Assembly (NCBI RefSeq): GCF_028641065.1
Contig: NC_073391.1
Span: 45,942,001-46,006,000 of the forward strand
Length of the DNA stretch: 64,000 nucleotides
Reading direction: 5' to 3'
DNA from: Leucoraja erinacea
Lineage: Eukaryota
The position numbers were made by a program, and so were the translations under genes. Of the stretch, positions 6,808 through 62,545 are shown in pieces. The first letter of the stretch is position 1, and each line of letters begins with the position of its first letter. The notes below the pieces were generated by a model that was given only the letters and a program-made list of their open reading frames with translations, was not told where the DNA came from and made no database searches.

Positions 6808-8053
6808 TAGAAACATAGAAAATAGGTGCAGGAGTAGGCCATTCAGCCCTTCGAGCCTGCACCGCCATTCATTACGATCATGGCTGATCATCCAACTCAG
6901 TATCCTGTACCTGCCTTCTCTCCATACCCCCTGATCCCTTTAGCCACAAGGGCCACATCTAACTCCCTCTTAAATATAGCCAATGAACTGGCCTCAACTA
7001 CTTTCTGTGGCAGAGAATTCCACATATTCACCACTCTCTGAATTTTTTTTTTTTTTCTCATCTCGGTCCTAAAAGACTTCCCCTTATCCTTAAACTTTGA
7101 CCCCTTATTCTGGACTTCCCCAACATCGGGAACAATCTTCCTGCATCTAGCCTGTCCAACCTCTTAAGAATTTTGTAAGTTTCAATAAGTTCCTCCCACA
7201 ATCTTCTAAATTCTAGCGAGTACAAGCCGAGTCTATCCAGTCTTTCTTCATATGAAAGTCCTGACATCCCAGGAATCAGCCTGGTGAACCTTCTCTGTAC
7301 TCCCTCTATGGCAAGAATGTCCTTCCTCATATTAGGAGACCAAAACTGTACGCAATACTCCAGGTGTGGCCTCACCAAGACCCCATACAACTGCAGTAGA
7401 ACCTCCCTGCTCCTATACTCAAAACATTTTGCTATAATAATAATAATAATAATAATATCTTTTATTGTCATTGCACATAAGCGCAACAAGATTTGGTATG
7501 CAGCTTCCATCTGATGTCATAACTTAAATAACTAATAAAATTTAGATTTAGATACCCCGAGAACATGGTTTGGTATGAATGCTAACATACCATTCGCTTT
7601 CTTCACTGCCTGCTGCACCTGCATACCTACTTTCAATGACTGGTGTACCATGACACCCAGGTCTCGTTGCATCTCCCCTTTACCTAATCGGCCACCATTC
7701 AGATAATAATCTACTTTCCTGTGTTTGCCACCAAAGTGGATGACCTCACATTTATCCACATTATACTGCATATATCTCGGAGGCACTTTCCAAATTCCCT
7801 TTCTTGGGGGTCCTGAACCAACCTGATTTTCCCAGCCTACCTGCATATTGAAATCTCCCATCACCACAGTGGCATTACCTTTGTTACATGCCAATTTTAA
7901 CTCCTTCTGCAACTTACACCCTATATCCAGGCTACTATTTGGGGGTCTGTAGATAACACCAATTAGTATCTTCTTACCGTTGCAATTCCTCAATTCTATT
8001 CACAGCGACTCTACCTCGTCAGTCCCTCTGTCTCCCCTCGCAAGGGACTGAAT
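6808..8053 (-). mobile_element. CR1 LINE fragments (RT C-terminus, 3' UTR and an APE endonuclease piece)
   Basis: ORFs 7058-7510 and 7532-7993 (IGVIYRPPNS...VVMGDFN endonuclease motif); CR1 tail at about 6808. Confidence 0.8.
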
Positions 8054-14783: not shown

Positions 14784-14930
14784 AATATTAAATCCCAGTG
14801 TTTAAGAAGGAACTGCAGATGCTGGAAAATTGAAGGTAGACAAAAAATGCTGGAGAAACTCAGCGGGTGCAGCAGCATCTATGGAGCGAAGGAGATAGGC
14901 AACGTTTCGGGCCGAAACCCTTCTTCAGAC

Positions 14931-15840
14931 TAAAGATCTTATAGCTTATAGCTATAGGGAGGTTTCACGGCAGTCGGGTCACGACCCATGACCTGTACTG
15001 TTGCTACTCTACTCCAAATGGATTACACGCGATGAACTGCAGGTAGGCACTTACCATTGTTTCCAGCGTTGCGGGCCCGTTAAAACCCGCCGAAAATGTC
15101 AATTTTTGCGCTGTAAATAATTATGGAAATCGGGATAAGCGCGAGAGACATTTAGCCTACTTCAGAATTCCAAAAGTGAGGAGAAATGACGGTAGATAGA
15201 AACGAGAGCTGAAGGGACAACAACAGCCAGAGTGCTTAGCGAACATTGGCCGTTTGCTCACTGCATTTCATCAACAGTAAGGCATTATTTGTGTTTTTCT
15301 TGATTCCTTTGGCATCTAAAAAGTTTCAGAAGTGATAAATCTGGCTGTAATTTTTTTAAATCGCCCATGGTTCTCGTGGGTTTTTACATACAAAATGAAA
15401 ACGCATCTGAAGAAAAATTTACAGCCAGATTTATCACTTCTGAGACTTTTTAGATACCAAAGGAATCAAGAAAAAACACAAATAATGCCTTACTGTTGAT
15501 GAAATGCAGTGAGCAAACGCGATAATTCCCAATATTTTCAATGTTTACCCAGCACTTTAGCTGCTATAGTCCCTTCAGTTCTCGCTTCTCTTTACCTTCA
15601 TTTCGCTTCACGTTTGGAATTCTAAAGTTGGGTACATGTCTCTCACACTTACCCCGACTCCCACAATTTGTTTCAGCGCAAAAATTCAAAATTTTAGCGG
15701 TTTTTAACAGGTAGGAAAGTACGCGTTTCTAGCATTAATAACATGTACCGGAAGTGATGGATGTCTTCCAGTTGGATTTAGCGGCTCCGTGCGTCGAGCC
15801 CTATGACCCAGTGACCTTTCGTGCAACCATAAGATCTTTG
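14931..15840. mobile_element. Non-autonomous DNA transposon (P-element-like fold-back MITE), 910 bp
   Basis: 8-bp TSD CTTCAGAC (14923-14930 / 15841-15848); termini TAAAGATCTTAT...ATAAGATCTTTG; long internal inverted repeat; splits a Penelope-derived repeat. Confidence 0.8.
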
Positions 15841-16756
15841 CTTCAGACTGATAGGGGGTGGGGGGGGGCGGGGAGAAGAAAGGAAAAAAGGAGGAGGAGC
15901 CCGAGGGCCGAGGGGAGAGATAGGAAGGGGAGGAGACACAAAGGGTTAACAGAATTGTGAGAATTCAATGTTCATGCCACCAGGATGCAGACTCCCCAAG
16001 CGGAATATGAGGTGCTGTTCCTCCAATATGAGGTGTAATCCCAGCTCAGATACAGCAATGACAATAGCAATTGTAATCATGTATTGTCTTTCCTTAAAAT
16101 GAATGAGTGAATACTTTATTGCCACATGTGGCAAGTTAAACACTTTGCTTGCCCCACCCTCACTTATTCTCTCCCCCCACCCCTCATGGCGGGTCCCCCC
16201 CCCCCACCTGGTCCCCCTTTGTTGTTCATCCCCCCCCCACTCTGGTTCCTTTTTGTTCCCACCAGCACATCCTCCGGCCCCATACGACGAGAATAATCTC
16301 CCCCCCCCCCCCCCCCCCCCCACTGATCGTGCCCAGTGAACAGTACTCAGTCCTGGATGTGATGAGAGCAGACACCACAGACTCCAACACTAGCAGACAC
16401 TTGTGGACTTAAGCTTGAACAGAGCTTTGTTGAACAGCAGGTGGACGCAAAATGCTGGAGTAACTCAGCGGCACAGACAGAAGACAGAAATAGGTGACGC
16501 CTCGACCCGAAACGTCACCTATTCCTTCTCTCCAGAGATGCTGCCTGCCCCGCTGAGTTACTCCAGCATTTTGCGTCAGCCTTCAATTTAAACCAGCATC
16601 TGCAGTTCTTCTCCGCACATTAGATCAACAGCGAAAGTATTCAGCAACTGCGATTGTTAACCCTGACCTCCCTCCCCCAGTGTGAACTCTCTCATGGGTT
16701 ACCAGGTTGGGAGACGGAGTGAATCTCTTCCCACACACGGAACAGGCGAACGGCCT

Positions 16757-39410: not shown

Positions 39411-39939
39411 TGGTCCTCGTATGTGGAGGGTGTGCAGTCAATTTAACCACAGCGACCTCTCCCAAACGACGTGATCGGTTACTTGCAAAACCATCGCACT
39501 TACAAGTGCCGGAAATTCCAACTATTACACATGAACCAATGGCAGTTTTCACCCTCCCTCCGCAGAGTAAACGGAGGAGGAAGAAATACAAGAACATTCA
39601 TACTGAGTTGGATGATCAGCCATGATCATATTGAATGGCGGTGCAGGCTCAAAGGGCCGAATGGCCTACTCCTGCACCTATTTTCTATGTTTCTATTCCG
39701 GAGAAGTCATCAGAAGAGAAAGACTGTCAGTGAGTGACCAGATGGGCCGAGTGGCCTACATTGTATGCGTAGACAACAGAACTCATTTATTTGTAGACCG
39801 TGGGCCGAGGTGCTTTTTCTTTTCATTTCATGCCCCAAATCACGTATCTACCTGTATTTATGCATTTCGTTGTCTCTGTACTGTACACTGACAATGACAA
39901 TTAAAATTGAATCTGAATCTGAATCGGATTTATAACATA

Positions 39940-40817
39940 CTAGACTAAGTGGGGCCCGTTGGGTCCCAGTCACCATGGGGAGGGTGTGTGGTGGTGGGGG
40001 GGTGTGGGGTAGGAGGGAAGTGTGTATGTGGGGGGAGGGAGGGGTCTGCGAGGGGGGGGAAGGAGGGCTGTGGGAGCGGGTGTGTGTTGGCGGGGTGAAA
40101 GATATAGGAGGAGGTGGTTTGGGGGAAGGGGTGTGTGTGGCCGGGGTTTGTGGAGGGGGGTGTGTGTGTGGGCGCGGGGGTATGTGTGGGCGGGGGGGGG
40201 GGGGGGGGGGGAGGGGTTTTGGGCAGGGTGTGTTGTGGAGGAAGGGTTTGTGGGTGGGGGAGGATATGTGGGAGGGATGGGTGAGTGGGAGGGAGGGGTA
40301 TGTGGGGGGGGGGGGGGGGGAGGGAGGAGTGTGGGGGCAGAGACATAAGCAAATGGCTTTCAGTATCACGGGAGAGGGGGGCAGGAGCCAGTGAGGGGGA
40401 CCAGAGGGGGTTGGGGGTGCAATGGGGACTCACAGCGGTCGCAGGTCGCTTCGTTGGTCGTTCTCCTCCACCGGGATCAGAATCTCCGCTTTCCGATTGG
40501 TGACATCAATGCCACCTCTGACTCCGCACTGGCTGCGTCGGGCCATTTCCGGTCCCTCCATCTAAAAATTGTGTCCAGATGGAGATCTCCGCCGGCCATC
40601 CAGAACCTTCCGCAGCTGCAGTAAAGACGCGATGGCGCCGGTAGGGGAGGGGCCATCCCGCGGAGTGACAGTAGAAGGGACCACTCCGCGCGGCGCTGAA
40701 TGGCAGGAGAGGAAATCGATCTGCGCACGAGCGGTTTTTAAGATTTTGAAACCTCGATAACACTTACCAGCTTCCAGCTATCAGAACGAAACTTGGTACA
40801 ATCGCAGCATAGGAGAG
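39940..40817 (-). mobile_element. Helitron-like element with a G-rich low-complexity interior
   Basis: Hairpin plus CTAG at 39940-39970; 40735-40800 resembles the other Helitron-like bodies; G/GT tract at 39975-40420. Confidence 0.5.
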
Positions 40818-42645: not shown

Positions 42646-44613
42646 CTACCCATAGTTGGGAGAGGCAAATGGTTTCTCCACAGCGTGAATTCGCTGGTGT
42701 GTCTTCAGGTTTGAAGATTGAGTGAATTTCTTCCCACACTCAGAGCAGGTGAACGGCCTCTCCCCTGAATGAATTCTCTGGTGTACCATTAACACAGATG
42801 ACCGAGAGAATCCCTTCCCACACTCAGAGCAGGTGAACGGACGTTCTCCAGAGTGAATTCTCTGATGTTTCAGTAACACAGACGACTGAGTGAACCCCTT
42901 CCCACACTCAGAGCAGGTGAACGGCCGTTCTCCAGAGTGCATTCTCTGGTGTGTCAGGAACACAGACGCCTGAGTGAATCCCTTCCCACACTCAGAGCAG
43001 GTGAACGGTCTCTTCCCAGGGTGAAGGTTGAGATGTTTTCGTAAAGTCGATGAATGTGCGAATCCCTTCCCACAATCAGGACAGACAAATGGTTTCTCCC
43101 CAGTGTGAATTCGCTGGTGGGATACCAGGTTGCAAGATTGGTTGAATCCCATCCCGCACTCGGAGCAGGTGAACGGCCTCTCCCCCGTGTGAATTCTCTG
43201 ATGAATCTTTAGGTTGTTTGCTACAGTGAATCGCTTCCCACAATCGGGACAGGCAAATGGTTTCTCCTCCGTGTGAACTCGCTGGTGGGATAGCAGTTGG
43301 GAAGATTGGCTGAATGCCTTCCTGCACTCAGAGCAGGTGAATGGCCTCTCCTCCGTGTGAATTCGCTGGTGTCTCAGTAACTGAGATGAACGAGTAAATC
43401 CCATCCCACATTCAGAGCAGGTGAACGGCCTCTCTCCAGTGTGAATTCGCTGGTGTGTCTTCAGGTTTGAAGATTGAGTGAATTTCTTCCCACACTCAGA
43501 GCAGGTGAACGGCCTCTCCCCTGAATGAATTCTCTGGTGTACCACTAACACAGATGACCGAGAGAATCCCTTCCCACACTCAGAGCAGGTGAACGGACGT
43601 TCTCCAGAGTGAATTCTCTGGTGTTTCAGTAACACAGACGACTGAGTGAATCCCTTCCCACACTCAGAGCAGGTGAACGGCCGTTCTCCAGAGTGCATTC
43701 TCTGGTGTGTCAGGAACACAGACGCCTGAGTGAATCCCTTCCCACACTCAGAGCAGGTGAACGGTCTCTTCCCAGGGTGAAGGTTGAGATGTTTTCGTAA
43801 AGTCGATGAATGTGCGAATCCCTTCCCACAATCAGGACAGACAAATGGTTTCTCCCCAGTGTGAATTCGCTGGTGGGATACCAGGTTGCAAGATTGGTTG
43901 AATCCCATCCCGCACTCGGAGCAGGTGAACGGCCTCTCCCCCGTGTGAATTCTCTGGTGAATCTTTAGGTTGTTTGCTACAGTGAATCGCTTCCCACAAT
44001 CGGGACAGGCAAATGGTTTCTCCTCCGTGTGAACTCGCTGGTGGGATAGCAGCTGGGAAGATTGGCTGAATGCCTTCCCGCACTCAGAGCAGGTGAATGG
44101 CCTCTCCTCCGTGTGAATTCGCTGGTGTCTCAGTAACTGAGATGAACGAGTAAATCCCATCCCACATTCAGAGCAGGTGAATGGCCTCTCTCCAGTGTGA
44201 ATTCGCTGGTGATTCTGTAACGCATATGATTCAATGAATCCCTTCCCACACTCAGAGCAGACAAACGGCTTCTCCCCTGTATGAATTCTCTGGTGCAGCA
44301 GCAACTTATATGATCCAATGAATCCCTTCCCACATTCAGAGCAGGTGAACGGCCTCTCTCCAGTGTGAATTCGCTGGTGATTCTGTAACGCATATGATTC
44401 AATGAATCCCTTCCCACACTCAGAGCAGGTGAACGGCCTCTCCCCTGTGTGAATACGCTGATGCCTCTTCAGTAGGTACGATTGAGTGAATCCCTTCCCA
44501 CAATCGGGACAGGTAAACGGTTTCTCCACAGTGTGAACTTGCTGTCGGGTCAACAGGTGGGAAGATTGGTTTAATCCCTGCCCACACTCAGAGCTGGCCA
44601 GTAATTTCTCCAT
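42646..44613 (-). CDS. C2H2 zinc-finger protein, 22 fingers, 655 aa
   Basis: ATG ([11 protein letters not shown]) at 44613; intact ORF; putative intron 44735-44927; includes a 756-bp internal tandem duplication. Confidence 0.92.
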   Translation of the reverse strand: MEKLLASSECGQGLNQSSHLLTRQQVHTVEKPFTCPDCGKGFTQSYLLKRHQRIHTGERPFTCSECGKGFIESYALQNHQRIHTGERPFTCSECGKGFIGSYKLLLHQRIHTGEKPFVCSECGKGFIESYALQNHQRIHTGERPFTCSECGMGFTRSSQLLRHQRIHTEERPFTCSECGKAFSQSSQLLSHQRVHTEEKPFACPDCGKRFTVANNLKIHQRIHTGERPFTCSECGMGFNQSCNLVSHQRIHTGEKPFVCPDCGKGFAHSSTLRKHLNLHPGKRPFTCSECGKGFTQASVFLTHQRMHSGERPFTCSECGKGFTQSSVLLKHQRIHSGERPFTCSECGKGFSRSSVLVVHQRIHSGERPFTCSECGKKFTQSSNLKTHQRIHTGERPFTCSECGMGFTRSSQLLRHQRIHTEERPFTCSECRKAFSQSSQLLSHQRVHTEEKPFACPDCGKRFTVANNLKIHQRIHTGERPFTCSECGMGFNQSCNLVSHQRIHTGEKPFVCPDCGKGFAHSSTLRKHLNLHPGKRPFTCSECGKGFTQASVFLTHQRMHSGERPFTCSECGKGFTQSSVLLKHQRIHSGERPFTCSECGKGFSRSSVLMVHQRIHSGERPFTCSECGKKFTQSSNLKTHQRIHAVEKPFASPNYG

Positions 44614-44799
44614 GCTGTGACCTGTCTGGCGTCCGGGCGGATCAGCTGACGCAGTGAATCCTCCCACACGTTCAGGCGCCGGTGAAATAAACGAGTTGGA
44701 GATTCCTGAACATCAATCCTCTGCTTCTTCTACCCTGTAAAAAGAGTTGACCATAAATTAACAGGTAAAGATCTGTCCGGGTCGGGACCCTTCCTCTCA

Positions 44800-47537: not shown

Positions 47538-48930
47538 GAGGTACACAAAAATGCTGGAGAAACTAAGCGGGTGCAGCAGCATCTATGGAGCAATGGGGAT
47601 AGGCAAAGTTTCAGGCCGAAACCCTTCTTCAGACTGATAGGGGGTAGGGGGAAGCGGGGAGAAGAAAGGAAAAAGGAGGAGGAGGAGCTCGAGGGCTGAG
47701 GGAGAGGTGGGAAGGGGAGGATACAGCAAGGGTTAACTGAATTGTGAGAATTCAATGTTCATGCCACCAGGATGCAGACTACCCAAGAGGTATGAGGCGA
47801 GTATGAGCACCATATGAGGGGCTGTTCCTCCAAATTACGGTGTTGCACACTCTGGCCGTGGAGGAGGCCCAGAACAGAGAGGTCGGATATGGAATGGGAG
47901 GGGGAGTTGAAGTGCTGAGCCACCGGGAGGTCAGGATGGTTAGTGTGGACCGAGCGGAGGTGTTCGGCGAAACGATCACCAAGCCTGCGCTTGGTCTCAC
48001 CGATATAGATCAGCTGACATCTAGAGCAGCGGATGCAATAGATGAGGTTGGAGGAGGTGCAGGTGAACCTCTGTCGCACCTGGAACGACAGCTTGGGGCC
48101 TTGAATGGAGTTGAGGGGGGAGGTAAAGCTACAAGTAAGGGAAAGTGCCCGGGGAAGGGGTGGAGCAGGAGGGAAGGGAAGAATTGACAAGGGAGTTACG
48201 GAGGGAGCGGTCTTTGTGGAAGGCAGACGGAGGGAAATGGGAAGATGTGGCGAGTGGTGGGGTCACGTTGGAGGTGGCAAAACTGACAGAGGACTATTTG
48301 TTGTATGTGCCGGCTAGTGGGGTGAAAGGTGAGGACCAGGGGGACTTGTTGCGAGTGGGGGGGATGGGGAGAGAGCGGTGTTGCAGGGTATGGAGGAGAC
48401 CCTGGTGCGAGCCTCAACTATAGTGGGGGAGGGGAAACCCCGTTCCCTGAAGATTGAGGACATTTGCGATGCCTTGGTGTGGAACACCTCATCCTGGGAG
48501 CAGATGCGGCGTAGAGGGAGGAATTGGGAATAGCGGATGGAGTACTTACAGGAAGCAGGGTAGCAGGACGAATAGTCAAGATAGCCATGGGAGTCAGTGC
48601 GTTTGTAGTGGATGTCGGTCAGAAGTCTATCACCTGCGATGGAGATAGTGAGGTCAAGGAATGGTAGGGAAGTGTCGGTAATGGTCCAGGTATATTTGAG
48701 TGCCGGTTGGAAGTTGGTGGTGAAGCGGATGAAGTCAGTCAGTTATGTGTGGGTGCAGGAGATGGCACCAAAGCAGTCGTCGATGTAATGGAGGTAGAGG
48801 TTGGGGATGGGGCCATGGTACGCCTCGAACAAGGATTGTTCGACGTAACCGACAAAGAGGCAGGCGTAGCTGGGGCCCATGTGCGTGCCCATAGCTACGC
48901 CTTGTATTTGGAGGAAATGGGAGGAGTCAA
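47538..48930 (-). mobile_element. Penelope-like retroelement, 5'-truncated (RT C-half, GIY-YIG endonuclease, terminal repeat)
   Basis: QGVAMGTHMGPSYACLF and YIDD on the - strand; LIYCIRCSRCQLIYIGETKRRLGDRFAEH; CTGAAGAAGGG terminal motif. Confidence 0.85.
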
Positions 48931-50332: not shown

Positions 50333-51832
50333 CTACCCATGGTTTGGAGAGGCAAATGGTTTCTCCACAGCGTGAAGTCGCTGGTGGGTCTTCAGGTTAG
50401 AAGATTGAGTGAATTTCTTCCCACACTCAGAGCAGGTGAACGGCCTCTCCCCTGAGTGAATTCTCTGGTGTCCCAGTAACGCAGATGACTGGGAGAATCC
50501 CTTCCCACACTCAGAGCAGGTGAACGGACGCTCTCCAGAGTGAATTCTCTGGTGTATCAGTAACACAGACGACTGAGTGAACCCCTTCCCACACTCGGAG
50601 CAGGTGAACGGCCGTTCTCCAGAGTGAATTCTCTGGTGTGTCAGGAACACAGATGCCTGAGTGAATCCCTTCCCACACTCAGAGCAGGTGAACGGTCTCT
50701 TCCCAGGGTGAACGTTGAGATGTTTTCGTAAAGTTGATGATTGAGCGAATTCCTTCCCACAATCGGGACAGACAAATGGTTTCTCCGCAGTGTGAACTCG
50801 CTGGTGGGATACCAGGTTGCAAGATTGGGTGAATCCCATCCCGCACTCGGAGCAGGTGAACGGCCTCTCCCCCGTGTGAATTCTCTCATGCACCACCAAC
50901 GCAAAGGAGTGAGCAAATCCCTGCCCACACTCGGAGCAGGTGAACGGCCTCTCCCCGGTGTGAATTCGCTGGTGGGTCTTCAGGTTACTTGCTACAGTGA
51001 ATCCCTTCCCACAATCGGGACAGGCAAATGGTTTCTCCGCAGTGTGAACTCGCTGGTGGGACACCAGTTTGGAAGATTGGCTGAATCCCTTCCCGCACTC
51101 GGAGCAGGTGAACGGCCTCTCCTCTATGTGAATTCTCTGGTGTCTCAGTAACTCAGATGAACGAGTAAATCCCTTCCCACAATCAGAGCAGGTGAACGGC
51201 CTCTCTCCAGTGTGAATGCGCTGGTGTATCTGTAACGCATACGAATCAATGAATCTCTTCCCACACTCAGAGCAGAAAAACGGCCTCTCCCCCGTGTGAA
51301 TTCTCTGGTGTAGCAGCAACTGAGATGAACAAGTAAATCCCTTCCCACATTCAGAGCAGGTGAATGGCCTCTCTCCAGTGTGAATCCGCTGATGTATCTG
51401 TAACGCATATGATTCAATGAATCCCTTCCCACACTCAGAGCAAGTGAACGGCCTCTCTCCTGTGTGAATTTTCTGGTGTCTCTTCAGTAGGTACGATTGA
51501 GTGAACCCCTTCCCACAATCTGGACATGTAAGCGGCTTCTCTGCAGCGTGAACCTGCTCGTGATTCCTCAGGTTGCGAGAATGTGTGAATGCCTTCCCAC
51601 ACTCGGAGCAGTTAAATGGCCTCTCACCGGTTTGAACTCGCGGACGTGTTGGCAGCCTCTGCCCGGTGTGAATCTGCTGGTGCCACTTTAGCTCGCTAGC
51701 TTGAGAGAATCCCTTCCCACAATCGGGACAAGTAAACGGTTTCTCCACAGTGTGAACTTGCTGTCGGGTCAACAGGTGGGAAGATTGGTTTAATCCCTGC
51801 CCACACTCAGAGCTGGCCAGTAATTTCTCCAT
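50333..51832 (-). CDS. C2H2 zinc-finger protein, 16 fingers, 499 aa
   Basis: ATG at 51832; intact ORF; N-terminus identical to the 42.6-kb and 60.5-kb genes. Confidence 0.92.
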
Positions 51833-52014
51833 GCTGTGACCTGTCTGGCGTCCGGGCGGATCAGCTGACGCAGTGAATCCTCCCACACGTTCAGGCGCAG
51901 GTGAAATAAACTAGTTTGAGATTCCTGAACATCAATCCTCTACTTTTTCTATCCTGTAAAAAGAGTTGACCATAAAAACAGGTAAAGGTCTGTCCGGATC
52001 GGGACCCTTCCTCT

Positions 52015-52480: not shown

Positions 52481-53498
52481 CTTGTATGTGGAGAGTCTGC
52501 AATCAATGTAACACAGCGGAAATTCCAACTATGTTACGAATGAACCAATGGCAGTTTTCTCCCTCCCTCCCTCCCCAGAGTAAACAGAGGAGGAAGAAAT
52601 ACAAGAACATTCCAGAGAAGTCAACAGAAGAGAAAGACTGGCAGAGTGACCAGATGGGCCGAGTGGCCTACATTGCATGCGGAGACAAGGGGTTCTCAAC
52701 AGAATTCATTTATTTGTAGACCATGGGCCGCGGTGCTTTTACATTTCATTTTGTGACCAAAATCATGTATCTACCTGTATTTATAACATATTGTGTAAAA
52801 ATATTATAGAAATCATACCTGAAACTCGTCAGCGGACGGTGGAGGCTTTCAAGAGAGTTAGATAAAACTCTTAGGGATAGCGGATTTAAGGGCTATGGAG
52901 AAAAATAATTGTCCAACCAAAGCACATTTGACCAATCACGCGCTTTGTTTCATGCTAGCTAGGCAGCGAGCACACTGGGATCATATCTGCCTCCTAATAA
53001 CATCACAACAATAGCAAGGTTTTGAAGGAAGAAAGGTAATGCTAACCTCTGGCAGATAATTTTGTTTTACAATTGATTGATCTTTGTAAAGTTATGATAT
53101 TCTGAACTGTGAAATAAAAATGATCAATAAAAATGTCGAGCTTGGGTCAGAGTCAGGGTTAGTGTCAGAGTTAGGGTTAGACATTTTCCTCTCAGTGGAA
53201 GATGCCTTAGCAGGGCTCTCAGTTTACTTTTTTTCTCTATTGCTAGCTGGGCAACCTGAGCAGCTTTTTATGAATGAATGAACGAATGAATGAATACGTT
53301 TATTGTCATTGTACAATACTGTGCAACGAAATTCCATTGCATCTCCTCCGGTTAAAAAATACAAAACACGACAACCATTGACACATATGTACACTTATTA
53401 GTAAAAATAATAAATCAGTATTTAAAAATAATTTTAAAAGAATGTTGCAATTCTTGGAATTAGATTTTGCTTCCCCAGTGTTCTCTGTTGGAATTAAG

Positions 53499-57849: not shown

Positions 57850-58110
57850 GACACGATGTGTGTGTGGAGTGGGCTCCACGTGTGTGTGTTGTGTGGAGTT
57901 GGGCTCCATTGCCGCCGGTAACACGGTGTGTGTGTGTGTGGTGGAGTTGGGCTCCATTGCCGCCGGTAACAAGGTGTGTGTGTGTGGGGTTGGGCTCCAT
58001 TGCCGCCGGTAACACGGTGTGTGTGTGTGTGGGGTTGGGCTCCATTGCCGCCGGTAACACGGTGTGTGTGTGTGGGGTTGGGCTCCATTGCCGCCGGTAA
58101 CACGGTGTGC
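57850..58110. repeat. Minisatellite, unit of about 40 bp: GTTGGGCTCCATTGCCGCCGGTAACACG(GT)n
   Basis: Five near-perfect units plus one degenerate unit, differing in (GT)n length. Confidence 0.9.
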
Positions 58111-58282
58111 GGGGGATTTGGGCGCCGACGGCCCCGGGCTGTGAACGAGCGGCGGCCGCGCGCCACAAGCAGCCGTTGGCCCCGGGCGTTTGAATCCCAA
58201 CGGCTGCAGCGCGAGCTAAGGGGGGGGGGGGGGGATTGGAGGAGCGGTTCAGCCGGCCACGTGGGTCCCACTTAGTCTAGTA

Positions 58283-58302
58283 CAAAGATCCTAGGATCTT
58301 TG
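58283..58302. mobile_element. Putative P-like transposon excision footprint
   Basis: Palindrome CAAAGATCCTAGGATCTTTG between 8-bp direct repeats GTCTAGTA. Confidence 0.7.
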
Positions 58303-58427
58303 GTCTAGTATGTTATAAGTACAGGTAGACACGTGGTTTGGGTCACAAAATGAAACGAAAAAGCACCTCTGCCCATGGGCTACAAATAAATGAGTTCTGT
58401 TGTAAACCCCTTGTCTTACAAACTTAA

Positions 58428-59584
58428 AGCACACGGCATTGGGGGTTCAGTATTGATGTGGATAGAGAACTGGCTGGCAAACAGGAAGCAAAGAGTAGGA
58501 GTAAACGGGTCCTTTTCACCAAAGATCTTTGCTTTTCACAATGGCAGGCAGTGACTAGTGGGGTACCGCAAGGCTCAGTGCTGGGACCCCAGCTATTTAC
58601 AATATATATTAACGATCTGGACGAGGGAATTGAAGGCAATATTTCCAAGTTTGCGGATGACACTAAGCTGGGGGGCAGTGTTAGGTGTGAGGAGGATGCT
58701 AGGAGACTGCAAGGTGACTTGGATAGGCTGGGTGAGTGGGCAAATGTTTGGCAGATGCAGTATAATGTGGATAAATGTGAGGTTATCCATTTTGGTGGCA
58801 AAAACGGGAAAGCAGACTATTATCTAAATGGTGGCCGATTGGGAAAGGGGGGAGATGCAGCGAGACCTGGGTGTCATGGTACACCAGTCATTGAAGGTAG
58901 GCATGCAGGTGCAGCAGGCAGTAAAGAAAGCAAATGGTATGTTGGCTTTCATTGCAAAAGGATTTGAGTATAGGAGCAGGGAGGCTCTACTGCAGTTGTA
59001 CAGGGTCTTGGCGAGACCACACCTGGAGTATTGCGTACAGTTTTGGTCTCCAAATCTGAGGAAGGACATTATTGCCATAGAGGGAGTGCAGAGACGGTTC
59101 ACCAGACTGATTCCTGGGATGTCAGGACTGTCTTATGAAGAAAGACTGGATAGACTTGGTTTATACTCTCTAGAATTTAGGAGATTGAGAGGGGATCTTA
59201 TAGAAACGTACAAAATTCTTAAGGGGTTGGACAGGCTAGATGCAGGAAGATTGTTCCCGATGTTAGGGAAGTCCAGGACAAGGGGTCACAGCTTAAGGAT
59301 AAGGGGGAAATCCTTTAAAACCGAGATGAGAAGAACCTTTTTTTTCACACAGAGAGTGGTGAATCTCTGAAACTCTCTGCCACAGAGGGTAGTTGAGGCC
59401 AGTTCATTGGCTATATTTAAGAGGGAGTTAGATGTGGCCCTTGTGGCTAAGGGGATTAGGGGGTATGGAGAGAAGGCAGGTATGGGATACTGAGTTGGAT
59501 GATCAGCCATGATCATATTGAATGGCGGTGCAGGCTCAAAGGGCCGAATGGCCTACTCCTGCACCTAATTTCTATGTTTCTATG
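58428..59584 (+). mobile_element. CR1 (HER1-like) LINE, 5'-truncated
   Basis: ORFs 58458-58967 and 58828-59370 ([18 protein letters not shown]-terminus) and tail. Confidence 0.88.
58520..58531. mobile_element. Putative P-like transposon excision footprint
   Basis: Palindrome CAAAGATCTTTG between 8-bp direct repeats CTTTTCAC; absent from the homologous CR1 site at about 47240. Confidence 0.7.
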
Positions 59585-60370: not shown

Positions 60371-60553
60371 GAGGAAGGGTCCCGACCCGGACAGATCTTT
60401 ACCTGTTAATTTATGGTCAACTCTTTTTACAGGGTAGAAGAAGCAGAGGATTGATGTTCAGGAATCTCTAACTCGTTTATTTCACCGGCGCCTGAACGTG
60501 TGGGAGGATTCACTGCGTCAGCTGATCCGCCCGGACGCCAGACAGGTCACAGC

Positions 60554-62545
60554 ATGGAGAAATTACTGGCCAGCTCTGAGTGTGGGCAGGGATTAAACCA
60601 ATCTTCCCACCTGTTGACCCGACAGCAAGTTCACACTGTGGAGAAACCGTTTACCTGTCCCGATTGTGGGAAGGGATTCACTCAATCGTACCAACTGAAG
60701 AGGCACCAGCGAATTCACACCGGGGTGAGGCCGCTCACTTGCTCTGAGTGTGGGAAGGGATTCTTTCGTTTATCGGCGTTGCAGGTACATCGGAGAATTC
60801 ACACGGGGGAGAGGCCATTCGTCTGCTCGGAGTGCGGGAAGGGATTCACTCGTTCATTCTCATTGCTGAAACACCAGAGAATTCACACCAGGGAGAGGCC
60901 GTATGTCTGCTCGGAGTGCGGGAAGGGATTCAGCCAAGCTTCCCTGCTGGTGTCCCACCGGCAAGTTCACGCTGTGCAGAAACCATTTCCCTGTCCCGAT
61001 TGTGGGAAGGGATTTGCTGAAGCAGACGGCCTGAGGAGGCACCAGCAAATCCACACCGGGGAGAGGCCGTTTGTCTGCTTTGTGTGTGGAAAGGGATTCG
61101 CTCGTTCGTTTTCATTGTTGATGCACCAGCGGATTCACACTGGCGAGAGGCCGTTCATCTGCTCCGAGTGTGGGAAGGGGTTCAACCAAGCTTCCCACCT
61201 GGTGACTCACCAGCAACTTCACGCTGCAAAGAAACCATTTCCCTGTCCCGATTGTGGGAAGGGATTCACACAGGCAGACAGCCTGAAGAAGCACCAGCTT
61301 ATTCACACCAAGGAGAGGCCGCTCACCTGCTCCGAGTGTGGGAAGGGTTTTTTTCGTTCATCTGCGTTACGGATACACCGGAGGATTCACACCGGGGAGA
61401 GGCCCTTTGTCTGCTCCCAGTGTGGGAAGGGATTCAGCCAATCTTCCCACCTGAAGAGACACCAGCAAGTTCACGCTGTGGTGAAACCATTTACCTGTCC
61501 CGATTGTGGGAAGGGATTCTCTCGAGCGAGCCAGCTAAAGTGGCACCAGCAGATTCACACCGGGCAGAGGCTGCCAACATGTCCGCGAGTTCAGACCGGC
61601 GAGAGGCCGTTTACCTGCTCCGAGTGTGGGAAGACATTCACACATTCTCGCAACCTGAGGAATCACGAGCGGGTTCACGCTGCAGAGAAGCCGCTTGCAT
61701 GTCCAGATTGTGGGAAGGGGTTCACTCAATCGTGCCAACTGAAGAGGCACCAACATATTCACACAGGGGAGAGGCCGTTCACTTGCTCTGAGTGTGGGAA
61801 GGGATTCATTGGATCATCTCAGTTGCTGATACACCAGCGAATTCACACGGGGGAGAAGCCGTTTGTTTGCCCTGAGTGTGGGAAGAGATTCATTGAATCA
61901 TCTGCATTACAGATACACCAGCGAATTCACACCGGAGAGAGGCCGTTCACCTGCTCTGAATGTGGGAAGAGATTTACTCGTTTTTCTGTCATGAGAACAC
62001 ACCAGAGAATTCACACCGGGGAGAGGCCGTTCACCTGTGCTGAGTGTGGGAAGGGATTCAATCAATCGTATCTGTTGGTGACACACCAGAGAATTCACAC
62101 CGGGGAGAGGCCGTTCACTTGCACTGAGTGTGGGAAGGGATTCGCTCATTCATCTACGTTAGCAAGACACCAGAGTATTCACACTGGGCAGAGGCCATTC
62201 AGCTGCTCTGAGTGTGGGAAGGGCTTTGCTCACTTTGATCAGCTGAGAGCCCACCAGCGAGTGCACACTGGGGAGAAACCATTTGCCTGTCCCGAATGTG
62301 GCAAGGGATTCACTCAAGCCGGCAATCTGAAGAAGCACCGGCAAAGACACACCGGGGAGAGGTCGTCAACCGGTTTTGGGTGTGCGGAGGGGCTCAGCGA
62401 GCCGCCCGCGACGGTAGAAATCACGGTGAGGCGTGGCCGAATCCCACGGAACCGGGAACCCGCCTGGAGAGGGAGCTCGCGCCGTGCGCCGCACCAGGGC
62501 TGCGCCACAGCGGACCCGGGCTCTGACGTGGAGACGGTCAAATGA
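60554..62545 (+). CDS. C2H2 zinc-finger protein, 20 fingers plus a non-finger C-terminal tail, 663 aa
   Basis: ATG at 60554 (in-frame stop upstream; the ORF track starts at a GTG); intact ORF. Confidence 0.92.
   Translation: MEKLLASSECGQGLNQSSHLLTRQQVHTVEKPFTCPDCGKGFTQSYQLKRHQRIHTGVRPLTCSECGKGFFRLSALQVHRRIHTGERPFVCSECGKGFTRSFSLLKHQRIHTRERPYVCSECGKGFSQASLLVSHRQVHAVQKPFPCPDCGKGFAEADGLRRHQQIHTGERPFVCFVCGKGFARSFSLLMHQRIHTGERPFICSECGKGFNQASHLVTHQQLHAAKKPFPCPDCGKGFTQADSLKKHQLIHTKERPLTCSECGKGFFRSSALRIHRRIHTGERPFVCSQCGKGFSQSSHLKRHQQVHAVVKPFTCPDCGKGFSRASQLKWHQQIHTGQRLPTCPRVQTGERPFTCSECGKTFTHSRNLRNHERVHAAEKPLACPDCGKGFTQSCQLKRHQHIHTGERPFTCSECGKGFIGSSQLLIHQRIHTGEKPFVCPECGKRFIESSALQIHQRIHTGERPFTCSECGKRFTRFSVMRTHQRIHTGERPFTCAECGKGFNQSYLLVTHQRIHTGERPFTCTECGKGFAHSSTLARHQSIHTGQRPFSCSECGKGFAHFDQLRAHQRVHTGEKPFACPECGKGFTQAGNLKKHRQRHTGERSSTGFGCAEGLSEPPATVEITVRRGRIPRNREPAWRGSSRRAPHQGCATADPGSDVETVK

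What the first reader, a model, noticed from the sequence alone, without database searches (positions are those of the whole stretch)
58275..58310. Footprint 1: 20-bp palindrome of two joined transposon ends inside an 8-bp TSD
Seen: GTCTAGTA-CAAAGATCCTAGGATCTTTG-GTCTAGTA. The insert is essentially just two CAAAGATC ends like those of the 14.9-kb element, and the paralogous site at 39938 has a single TACTAGAC with no insert. Known: Drosophila P transposase makes staggered cuts that leave TIR-derived overhangs on the donor, so repair leaves short TIR pieces between intact TSDs; hAT excision does not. Inference: a mechanistic fingerprint of P-type excision.
Basis: partly seen in the sequence, partly recalled or inferred. 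Interest (0 to 1): 0.75.

Follow-up and report, generated by a model that had tools for sequence, protein, structure and literature searches.

The report
Transposon excision scars in skate-like genome
This 20-base palindrome is most likely the scar left when a jumping gene cut itself out and the cell rejoined the two leftover tips, a pattern known from the fruit-fly P element, though the responsible jumping gene has not been found.

Summary
The feature is real: an exact 8-bp duplication encloses a perfect 20-bp palindrome (58275-58310), and 4 of 4 sister sites carry one copy and no insert. A second scar with the same CAAAGATC tips lies 202 bases away. The '14.9-kb element' is not 14.9 kb long and is not the parent. 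It is a 910-bp composite at 14931-15840: an ISL2EU-type MITE nested in a third CAAAGATC scar. In 3 of 3 informative runs the MITE family stops at the inner AT boundary, and depth drops 63-179-fold over the outer tip. Its THAP remnants match THAP-HTH-DDE_Tnp_4 proteins, so they are no evidence for P. The three junction types (8-nt microhomology, 2-nt TA, long tips with filler) match those of experimental P excision (PMC2895639). Best reading: deep staggered excision followed by end joining (0.68). P-superfamily membership is untested: no parent transposase, genome or own-species reads were available. The scan noted similar scars on other DNA before.

The parts
58275..58282 (.). Scar 1, left 8-bp target-site duplication (GTCTAGTA)
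58283..58302 (.). Scar 1, perfect 20-bp palindrome: two CAAAGATCCT tips joined (10+10 blunt, or 11+11 sharing TA)
58303..58310 (.). Scar 1, right 8-bp duplication
58263..58280 (+). Host of scar 1: Helitron-like 3' end (hairpin, then CTAG, then T; the Helitron label is recalled). Four more such ends in the window carry a single GTCTAGTA
58512..58539 (.). Scar 2: CTTTTCAC duplication around the perfect 12-bp palindrome CAAAGATCTTTG (58520-58531), inside a reverse-transcriptase (CR1/L2-like) repeat
   Evidence: 2 of 2 paralogs that span the site lack 20 bases
14923..14930 (.). Scar 3, left 8-bp duplication (CTTCAGAC)
14931..14953 (.). Scar 3, left part of the shell: tip (first base T instead of C) and junction filler
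14954..14955 (.). AT duplication, left of the nested MITE
   Evidence: loose ends at 14953/14954
14956..15828 (.). Nested high-copy ISL2EU-type MITE with two inverted arms (77% alike over 662 columns); right tip a few bases shorter than the family consensus
15098..15277 (+). Broken THAP exon, left arm of the MITE
   Evidence: 77% over 52 aa to P0004
15492..15692 (-). Broken THAP exon, right arm of the MITE
15829..15830 (.). AT duplication, right of the nested MITE
15831..15840 (.). Scar 3, right part of the shell (ends GATCTTTG)
15841..15848 (.). Scar 3, right 8-bp duplication (CTTCAGAC)
39938..39945 (-). Empty paralogous site of scar 1 (single GTCTAGTA)

Best explanation
Scar 1 is the repaired donor site of a cut-and-paste DNA transposon with CAAAGATC ends that duplicates 8 bp. 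Step 1 (shown): something inserted here and duplicated GTCTAGTA; sister sites have one copy. Step 2 (inferred): on excision the transposase cut one strand at the element end and the other strand at least 11, probably 15-16 or more, bases inside the terminal inverted repeat, so each flank kept a single-stranded tail of tip sequence. Step 3 (inferred; junctions shown): the two identical tails annealed at self-complementary words or were joined with a short filler, as polymerase-theta-type end joining does. This gave 12 bp (8-nt word AAGATCTT, scar 2), 20 bp (TA, scar 1) and 35 bp (long tips plus filler, scar 3). Scar 3 later took in an unrelated ISL2EU-type MITE at an AT in a TATA context. The mechanism works like Drosophila P; a P-superfamily transposase is the likeliest author (roughly 0.5 overall) but is not identified.
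For: Three independent 8-bp duplications enclose the same tip word, in three different host repeats. Empty sister sites: 4 of 4 Helitron-like ends and 2 of 2 spanning LINE paralogs. Scar 2 equals the product predicted from the strongest self-complementary word in the tip read from scar 3. Contigs of runs X1 and X15 join the same 8-bp site to short tips without the MITE, implying 20, 19 and 26 bp, one with a 4-base filler. All remnants are at most 16 bases per side. The P repair table lists the same classes: 8-nt microhomology 14, AT or TA microhomology at the tail tips 19, insertions 18, of 66 listed isolates by my sum (PMC2895639 Table 1). P cuts 17 bases inside its repeat and duplicates 8 bp (PMC7776569 section 7). 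The three duplications match the P target core at 12 of 24 positions, P = 0.006 against window background (consensus from PMC2577343).
Against: No parent element or transposase: 0 of 113 window ORFs scanned hit a transposase family, and no genome was held. Only 3 scars in the window plus 4 contig joints; the two X1 joints are flagged 'between: not known', and the fourth joint (11 bp, arm of 2) does not fit the tip. Any perfect palindrome has a self-complementary centre, so the microhomology of scar 1 is partly circular; 5 of the possible centres in a 16-base tip qualify. The 16-base arms of scar 3 depend on reading the MITE duplication as AT; read as TA the arms are 11 bases. The fly table comes from Rad51-deficient animals; in wild type most products involve partial copying from the sister. 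The target match does not separate P from hAT (hAT consensus T at 2, A at 7 is recalled; 3 of 3 and 2 of 3 here).
Confidence: 0.68

Rival explanations
1. The scars are extreme internal deletions not caused by tails left on the donor. Either the element was cut out flush and gap repair copied only 6-16 bases of each tip back from the sister before end joining, or the interior was lost by slippage or microhomology deletion between palindromic words present in both inverted repeats. The family could then be hAT, Zisupton or any 8-bp-duplicating group.
For: AAGATCTT is a direct repeat shared by both tips, so one deletion gives scar 2 exactly. Partial copying followed by end joining is the commonest outcome in wild-type flies (PMC2895639 passage). 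Zisupton and most hAT also duplicate 8 bp (PMC12730594 passages).
Against: It predicts a long tail of larger remnants, yet 3 of 3 window cases and 3 of 3 tip-fitting contig joints keep at most 16 bases per side, and the window has no longer deletion derivative. Two-base microhomology and filler bases are not expected from slippage across kilobases (inference).
Confidence: 0.2
2. The palindromes are tiny mobile units that were inserted as they are.
For: Each has perfect ends and an exact 8-bp duplication.
Against: Lengths differ at every site (12, 20, 35; contigs 19, 20, 26), unlike an amplified master copy. P transposase binds sites internal to the repeats (PMC7776569 section 7), which 12-20 bp cannot hold.
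Confidence: 0.05
3. The CAAAGATC shell is the true terminal repeat of an ISL2EU-related THAP-DDE_Tnp_4 lineage that duplicates 8 bp, which would be a new PHIS group.
For: In the window the shell encloses THAP exons closest to skate THAP-HTH_Tnp_4-DDE_Tnp_4 proteins.
Against: In runs X1, X15 and X17 the family's contigs stop at the inner boundary (loose ends before 14953/14954: 14, 43 and 41 contigs; behind 15828: 10 in X1) and depth falls 63-, 179- and 99-fold over the outer tip. The inner AT duplication fits published ISL2EU (PMC4482050). None of 6 related transposase loci has an exact CAAAGATC end.
Confidence: 0.04
4. Chance or an assembly artefact.
For: No reads of this locus could be checked. 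The window is rich in short direct repeats (555 against about 40 in shuffles).
Against: Three sites share one tip word; 0 of 200 shuffles gave two perfect palindromes; the same structure shows in contigs of other runs; 0 cases in 106 control loci of 452 kb chosen for holding the tip word.
Confidence: 0.03

Closest known systems
Drosophila P-element excision junctions after end joining (PMC2895639 Table 1; mechanism PMC7776569)
   Same: Intact 8-bp duplications around two joined tip pieces; collapse at a long self-complementary word, at 2-base AT/TA, or with short filler; pieces no longer than about 17 bases per side; ends begin CA.
   Different: Different tip sequence; natural germline scars in a cartilaginous-fish-like genome; cut depth only bounded (at least 11, probably 15-16); transposase unknown.
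Zebrafish Pdre2 / THAP9 (10.1101/2024.03.22.586318)
   Same: Vertebrate P-like element with CA-starting repeats and 8-bp duplication; its enzyme excises in cells.
   Different: Its 13-bp repeat has another sequence; in the section read, excision by the zebrafish enzyme gave larger flanking deletions, and tip-only scars were not described.
hAT, MULE and Transib footprints (PMC5499845)
   Same: 8-bp duplication is usual for hAT; palindromic bases can occur in the footprint.
   Different: Their hairpin forms on the flank, so added bases mirror flank DNA and not the element's tips; here the inserts share one tip word and do not mirror three different flanks.
ISL2EU transposons of the PHIS group (PMC4482050, PMC4122938)
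   Same: The MITE nested in scar 3 has an AT duplication and THAP exons of THAP-HTH-DDE_Tnp_4 type; a related locus shows the convergent YqaJ gene (L003).
   Different: Explains only the passenger, not the 8-bp-duplicating tips. Its ends read AGGG/CCCT in a T-AT-A context here, against GG ends and A-AT-T in the paper.

Membership tests
P superfamily (author of the CAAAGATC ends) | 8-bp target-site duplication | tested here: met
   3 of 3 sites, exact; shared with hAT and Zisupton, so not specific
P superfamily (author of the CAAAGATC ends) | Terminal inverted repeats beginning CA | tested here: met
   5 of 6 tips begin CA, one begins TA; P and Pdre2 tips begin CA; not specific
P superfamily (author of the CAAAGATC ends) | Transposase with THAP, RNase H and GTP-binding insertion encoded between these ends | not testable with these tools
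   No genome held; no parent in the window. The THAP seen belongs to the nested MITE
P superfamily (author of the CAAAGATC ends) | Deep staggered donor cut (17 bases in Drosophila) leaving tip-derived tails | tested here: inconclusive
   Remnants of 6-16 bases per side and P-like junction classes; too few cases to show an upper edge
P superfamily (author of the CAAAGATC ends) | Target preference like the P consensus | tested here: inconclusive
   12 of 24 core positions, P = 0.006, n = 3; hAT-type preference (recalled) fits as well
hAT superfamily | Footprint built from flank hairpins, without element tips | tested here: not met
   Inserts share a tip word across three unrelated flanks (mechanism)
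hAT superfamily | hAT transposase between the ends | not testable with these tools
   No parent element available
Zisupton / KDZ | 8-bp duplication plus KDZ transposase | tested here: inconclusive
   8 bp fits; transposase not testable; its excision chemistry was not found in the passages read
ISL2EU (as author of the 8-bp scars) | 2-bp AT duplication at the family's own ends | tested here: not met
   The CAAAGATC tips sit in 8-bp duplications and do not travel with the ISL2EU-type family
ISL2EU (nested MITE 14956-15828) | THAP-HTH-DDE transposase relationship | tested here: met
   THAP exons 56-77% identical to P0004/P0005, which carry PF05485, PF13613 and PF13359
ISL2EU (nested MITE 14956-15828) | AT duplication | tested here: met
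   AT on both sides; in X1 and X17, 27 of 55 contigs with loose left ends begin to match only at the A, favouring AT over TA
ISL2EU (nested MITE 14956-15828) | Second, YqaJ exonuclease gene in the autonomous partner | tested here: inconclusive
   Seen in a distant relative (L003, 51% identity), not for this MITE's own parent

The most novel reading that the evidence does not exclude
The CAAAGATC family is not P but another 8-bp-duplicating superfamily (Zisupton/KDZ, a hAT-like offshoot or an unclassified group) that also cuts 15 or more bases inside its ends. That would be a second lineage with a deep staggered cut, a trait the review read calls unusual to P. Its scars (10-137 per Mb if this window is typical) would let the cut depth and the germline repair pathway be read straight from a vertebrate genome.
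Probability: 0.18. Interest if true: 0.7.

Novelty: new member of a known kind. Interest (0 to 1): 0.4.

Why it matters
If the reading holds, a cartilaginous-fish genome keeps a dense natural record of staggered transposon excision and germline end joining. The upper edge of tip lengths would give the cut depth of a vertebrate P-like enzyme without biochemistry. There is also an annotation trap: a scar re-invaded by an ISL2EU MITE mimics a THAP-bearing, 8-bp-duplicating 'P MITE'. The mechanism itself is known from flies, and this scan has noted similar scars in other genomes, so the surprise is moderate.

Tried and rejected
Reading the 910-bp structure as the parent (first as P because of THAP, then as a new 8-bp ISL2EU lineage): rejected. 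Whole-genome census: no genome held. Raw-read run X24 laid 0 reads on 14900-15854, so it is no test. Related transposase loci: 6 in metagenome contigs, none with exact CAAAGATC ends, none similar to the window at DNA level; none in viral contigs. A 15-letter tip pattern in viral contigs gave 106 single matches, none similar to the window and none paired in a duplication; treated as chance. The 50% protein library returned only 3 weak hits for the THAP fragment. Pfam scan of 113 window ORFs of 95 aa or more (zinc-finger, common LINE and low-complexity frames removed first): no transposase family. Two AT-rich candidates (28545, 63879) and one near-palindrome at 7420 were set aside: they lack the tip word, and 7420 has an imperfect 7-bp flank. 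A Helitron origin of scar 1 (CTAG in both insert and flank): rejected because scars 2 and 3 share the tip in other hosts. Literature: CAAAGATC with transposon terms gave 2 papers whose titles are unrelated (listing only); two searches listed no paper whose title describes such scars in cartilaginous fish; a THAP9 survey had no hit for shark, skate or fish terms; a ray genome preprint names no DNA-transposon superfamily among the terms tried. Repbase and Dfam were not searchable, and no supplements were read; either may already hold this family.

Full report
Observation. The window shows GTCTAGTA at 58275-58282, the perfect palindrome CAAAGATCCTAGGATCTTTG at 58283-58302, and GTCTAGTA again at 58303-58310. 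The paralogous segment near 39.9 kb has the 8-mer once, at 39938-39945. The 8-mer is the tail of a repeat end with a hairpin followed by CTAG and T, which I recall as a Helitron 3' end. Five such ends occur in the window, and the 4 others carry one copy and no insert. A third paralog at 52.7 kb lacks that repeat end altogether. So the insert and one 8-mer copy were added to this site.

Chance. A scan for exact 8-bp direct repeats around 8-40 bp inserts found 2 perfect palindromes; 200 dinucleotide shuffles gave a mean of 0.01, and none gave two. The null is lenient, because the real window has 555 such direct repeats against about 40 in shuffles. But the second palindrome, CAAAGATCTTTG inside CTTTTCAC at 58512-58539, has the same tip word and lies 202 bases away. 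It interrupts a reverse-transcriptase repeat, and 2 of 2 paralogs spanning the site lack exactly 20 bases. The tip word alone is not in excess (7 seen; 7 of 100 shuffles reach 7).

Host. The window is a C2H2 zinc-finger gene cluster rich in LINE pieces. The closest named proteins to its THAP fragment come from the skates Rhinoraja longicauda and Leucoraja erinacea, so a skate or ray is the likely host (inference).

The '14.9-kb element'. No paired CAAAGATC ends lie 14.9 kb apart. The only longer structure is 910 bp at 14931-15840, inside a CTTCAGAC duplication. It has two inverted arms, 77% alike, each with a broken THAP exon. These exons are 56-77% identical to skate proteins with THAP, HTH_Tnp_4 and DDE_Tnp_4 domains. 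That is the ISL2EU architecture, for which the papers give an AT duplication (PMC4482050, parts 1-2 of 4 read; PMC4122938 and PMC9179366, passages). A distant relative in L003 shows the convergent YqaJ gene expected of ISL2EU. So this THAP is not evidence for P.

Nested or single? I laid 4 runs on 14900-15854. X24 laid nothing; X1, X15 and X17 laid 4499, 9717 and 10586 contigs. Among the 18 loose-end rows shown (587 more not shown), copies diverge before 14953/14954 (14, 43 and 41 contigs) and behind 15828 (10 contigs in X1, continuing CCCCTAT). Depth in the bin holding the outer right tip is 63, 179 and 99 times lower than in the bin before it. The high-copy family therefore ends at the inner AT boundary, and the CAAAGATC shell is local. 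Removing the MITE leaves a third scar: 35 bp with 16-base arms if the duplication is AT, 33 bp with 11-base arms if it is TA. AT is favoured, because 27 of 55 left loose ends in X1 and X17 begin to match only at the A. Part of the 35 bp could also come from earlier entries and exits of the MITE family; in that case the scar proper is about 22 bp.

More junctions. The same table lists contigs that join this 8-bp site to short tips without the MITE: 14939 to 15830 and 14938 to 15830 in X1 (20 and 19 bp implied, but flagged 'between: not known'), and 14941 to 15830 with a 4-base filler in X15 (26 bp). A fourth joint in X1 implies 11 bp and does not fit the tip. Twenty-seven joints and 24 filler rows were not shown. 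These runs are coded organisms that need not be the window's species, and the host repeat is very abundant, so the contigs may be other copies. One X1 loose-end row (3 contigs, behind 15057) starts with CAAAGATC inside the MITE, a hint that such tips occur at further sites.

Mechanism. Drosophila P transposase cuts the 3' end flush and the other strand 17 bases inside the repeat, and duplicates 8 bp (PMC7776569, passages and section 7). The donor keeps 17-base 3' tails. In Rad51-deficient flies their repair gave collapse at an 8-base word (14), AT or TA microhomology at the tail tips (19) and insertions (18), of 66 listed isolates by my sum (PMC2895639, passages and section 7). The scars here fall in the same classes. 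Scar 2 is the product of the 8-base self-complementary word AAGATCTT in the tip read independently from scar 3; scar 1 is a join at TA or a blunt 10+10 join; scar 3 keeps long tips with filler. In scar 1 the ninth base is C, which weakens the 8-base word to GATC and may be why it joined further in (inference). hAT, MULE and Transib form hairpins on the flank instead (PMC5499845, passages), which cannot put one shared tip word into three unrelated flanks. Shown: insertion, duplication, shared tips, junction forms, nesting. Inferred: excision, the staggered cut, its depth and the repair pathway.

Against this. The sample is small. A palindrome always has a self-complementary centre, and 5 centres in the 16-base tip qualify. 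In wild-type flies most P repair products involve partial copying from the sister before end joining; after a flush cut this route could also leave short tips, and I give it and slippage 0.2 together. No full allele at a scar site and no reads of this locus were seen.

Membership. The 8-bp duplication and CA start fit P, including zebrafish Pdre2 (10.1101/2024.03.22.586318, passages and section 6) and Anopheles and repleta-group elements for the duplication (PMC1562414, PMC3698922, passages). They also fit hAT and, for the duplication, Zisupton (PMC12730594, passages; PMC4455052 passages gave only the superfamily list). The three duplications match the P target core at 12 of 24 positions (P = 0.006; PMC2577343, passages), but a hAT-type preference, which I recall, fits as well. 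The defining test, the transposase, could not be run: 0 of 113 scanned window ORFs hit a transposase family, and collection scans found no parent. The verdict is 'works like P, membership open'.

Novelty. The mechanism is known from flies. Nine paper searches listed no title describing this family or such scars in cartilaginous fish, but Repbase, Dfam, most subscription papers and supplements were not seen. Earlier notes of this scan report similar tip-only scars in other genomes; they are unchecked leads, not support. Three scars in 64 kb give 47 per Mb (95% interval 10-137) if the window is typical, which is untested. Interest 0.4; 0.7 if the author proves to be a non-P superfamily.

Noticed in passing
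window 14956-15828: The nested MITE is made of two transposase-side (THAP) ends facing each other. The outer parts are diverged while the inner intron parts are nearly identical (43 exact bases), which suggests fusion of two subfamily ends with later homogenisation; the fused form has depth across all 30 bins in three runs.
   Followed up: partly
window 14946-14955: A 7-base tandem duplication beside the MITE's left end could be templated filler of the scar, or small AT-AGCT-AT leftovers of earlier ISL2EU entry and exit; ISL2EU excision products were not found in the passages read.
   Followed up: partly
window 58263, 39957, 34039, 13007, 11916: Five Helitron-like 3' ends (hairpin, then CTAG), all followed by TA; the paralog at 52683-52790 lacks the end and shows an A|T junction.
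   Followed up: partly
window 42646-44712, 50333-51910, 60455-62545: Closely related C2H2 zinc-finger exons; the 60-62 kb copy is inverted relative to the others, with 93% identity over 651 bases to the 44-kb copy.
   Followed up: no
protein P0003: A Rhinoraja gene model named cdk2ap1 joins an ISL2EU-type THAP N-terminus to a CDK2AP domain: a possible exon capture or a mis-joined model.
   Followed up: no
L006:55-2680: A degenerate ISL2EU-like element that appears to have both ends (TATTCTTGG-type inverted tips) in a 3.1-kb contig, read by eye.
   Followed up: no
window 57860-58110: Tandem array of about 45-base units with GT microsatellite cores just upstream of scar 1.
   Followed up: no
window 47762-48262: Frame with a weak GIY-YIG hit (E = 0.00024), probably a Penelope-like remnant (label recalled).
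   Followed up: no
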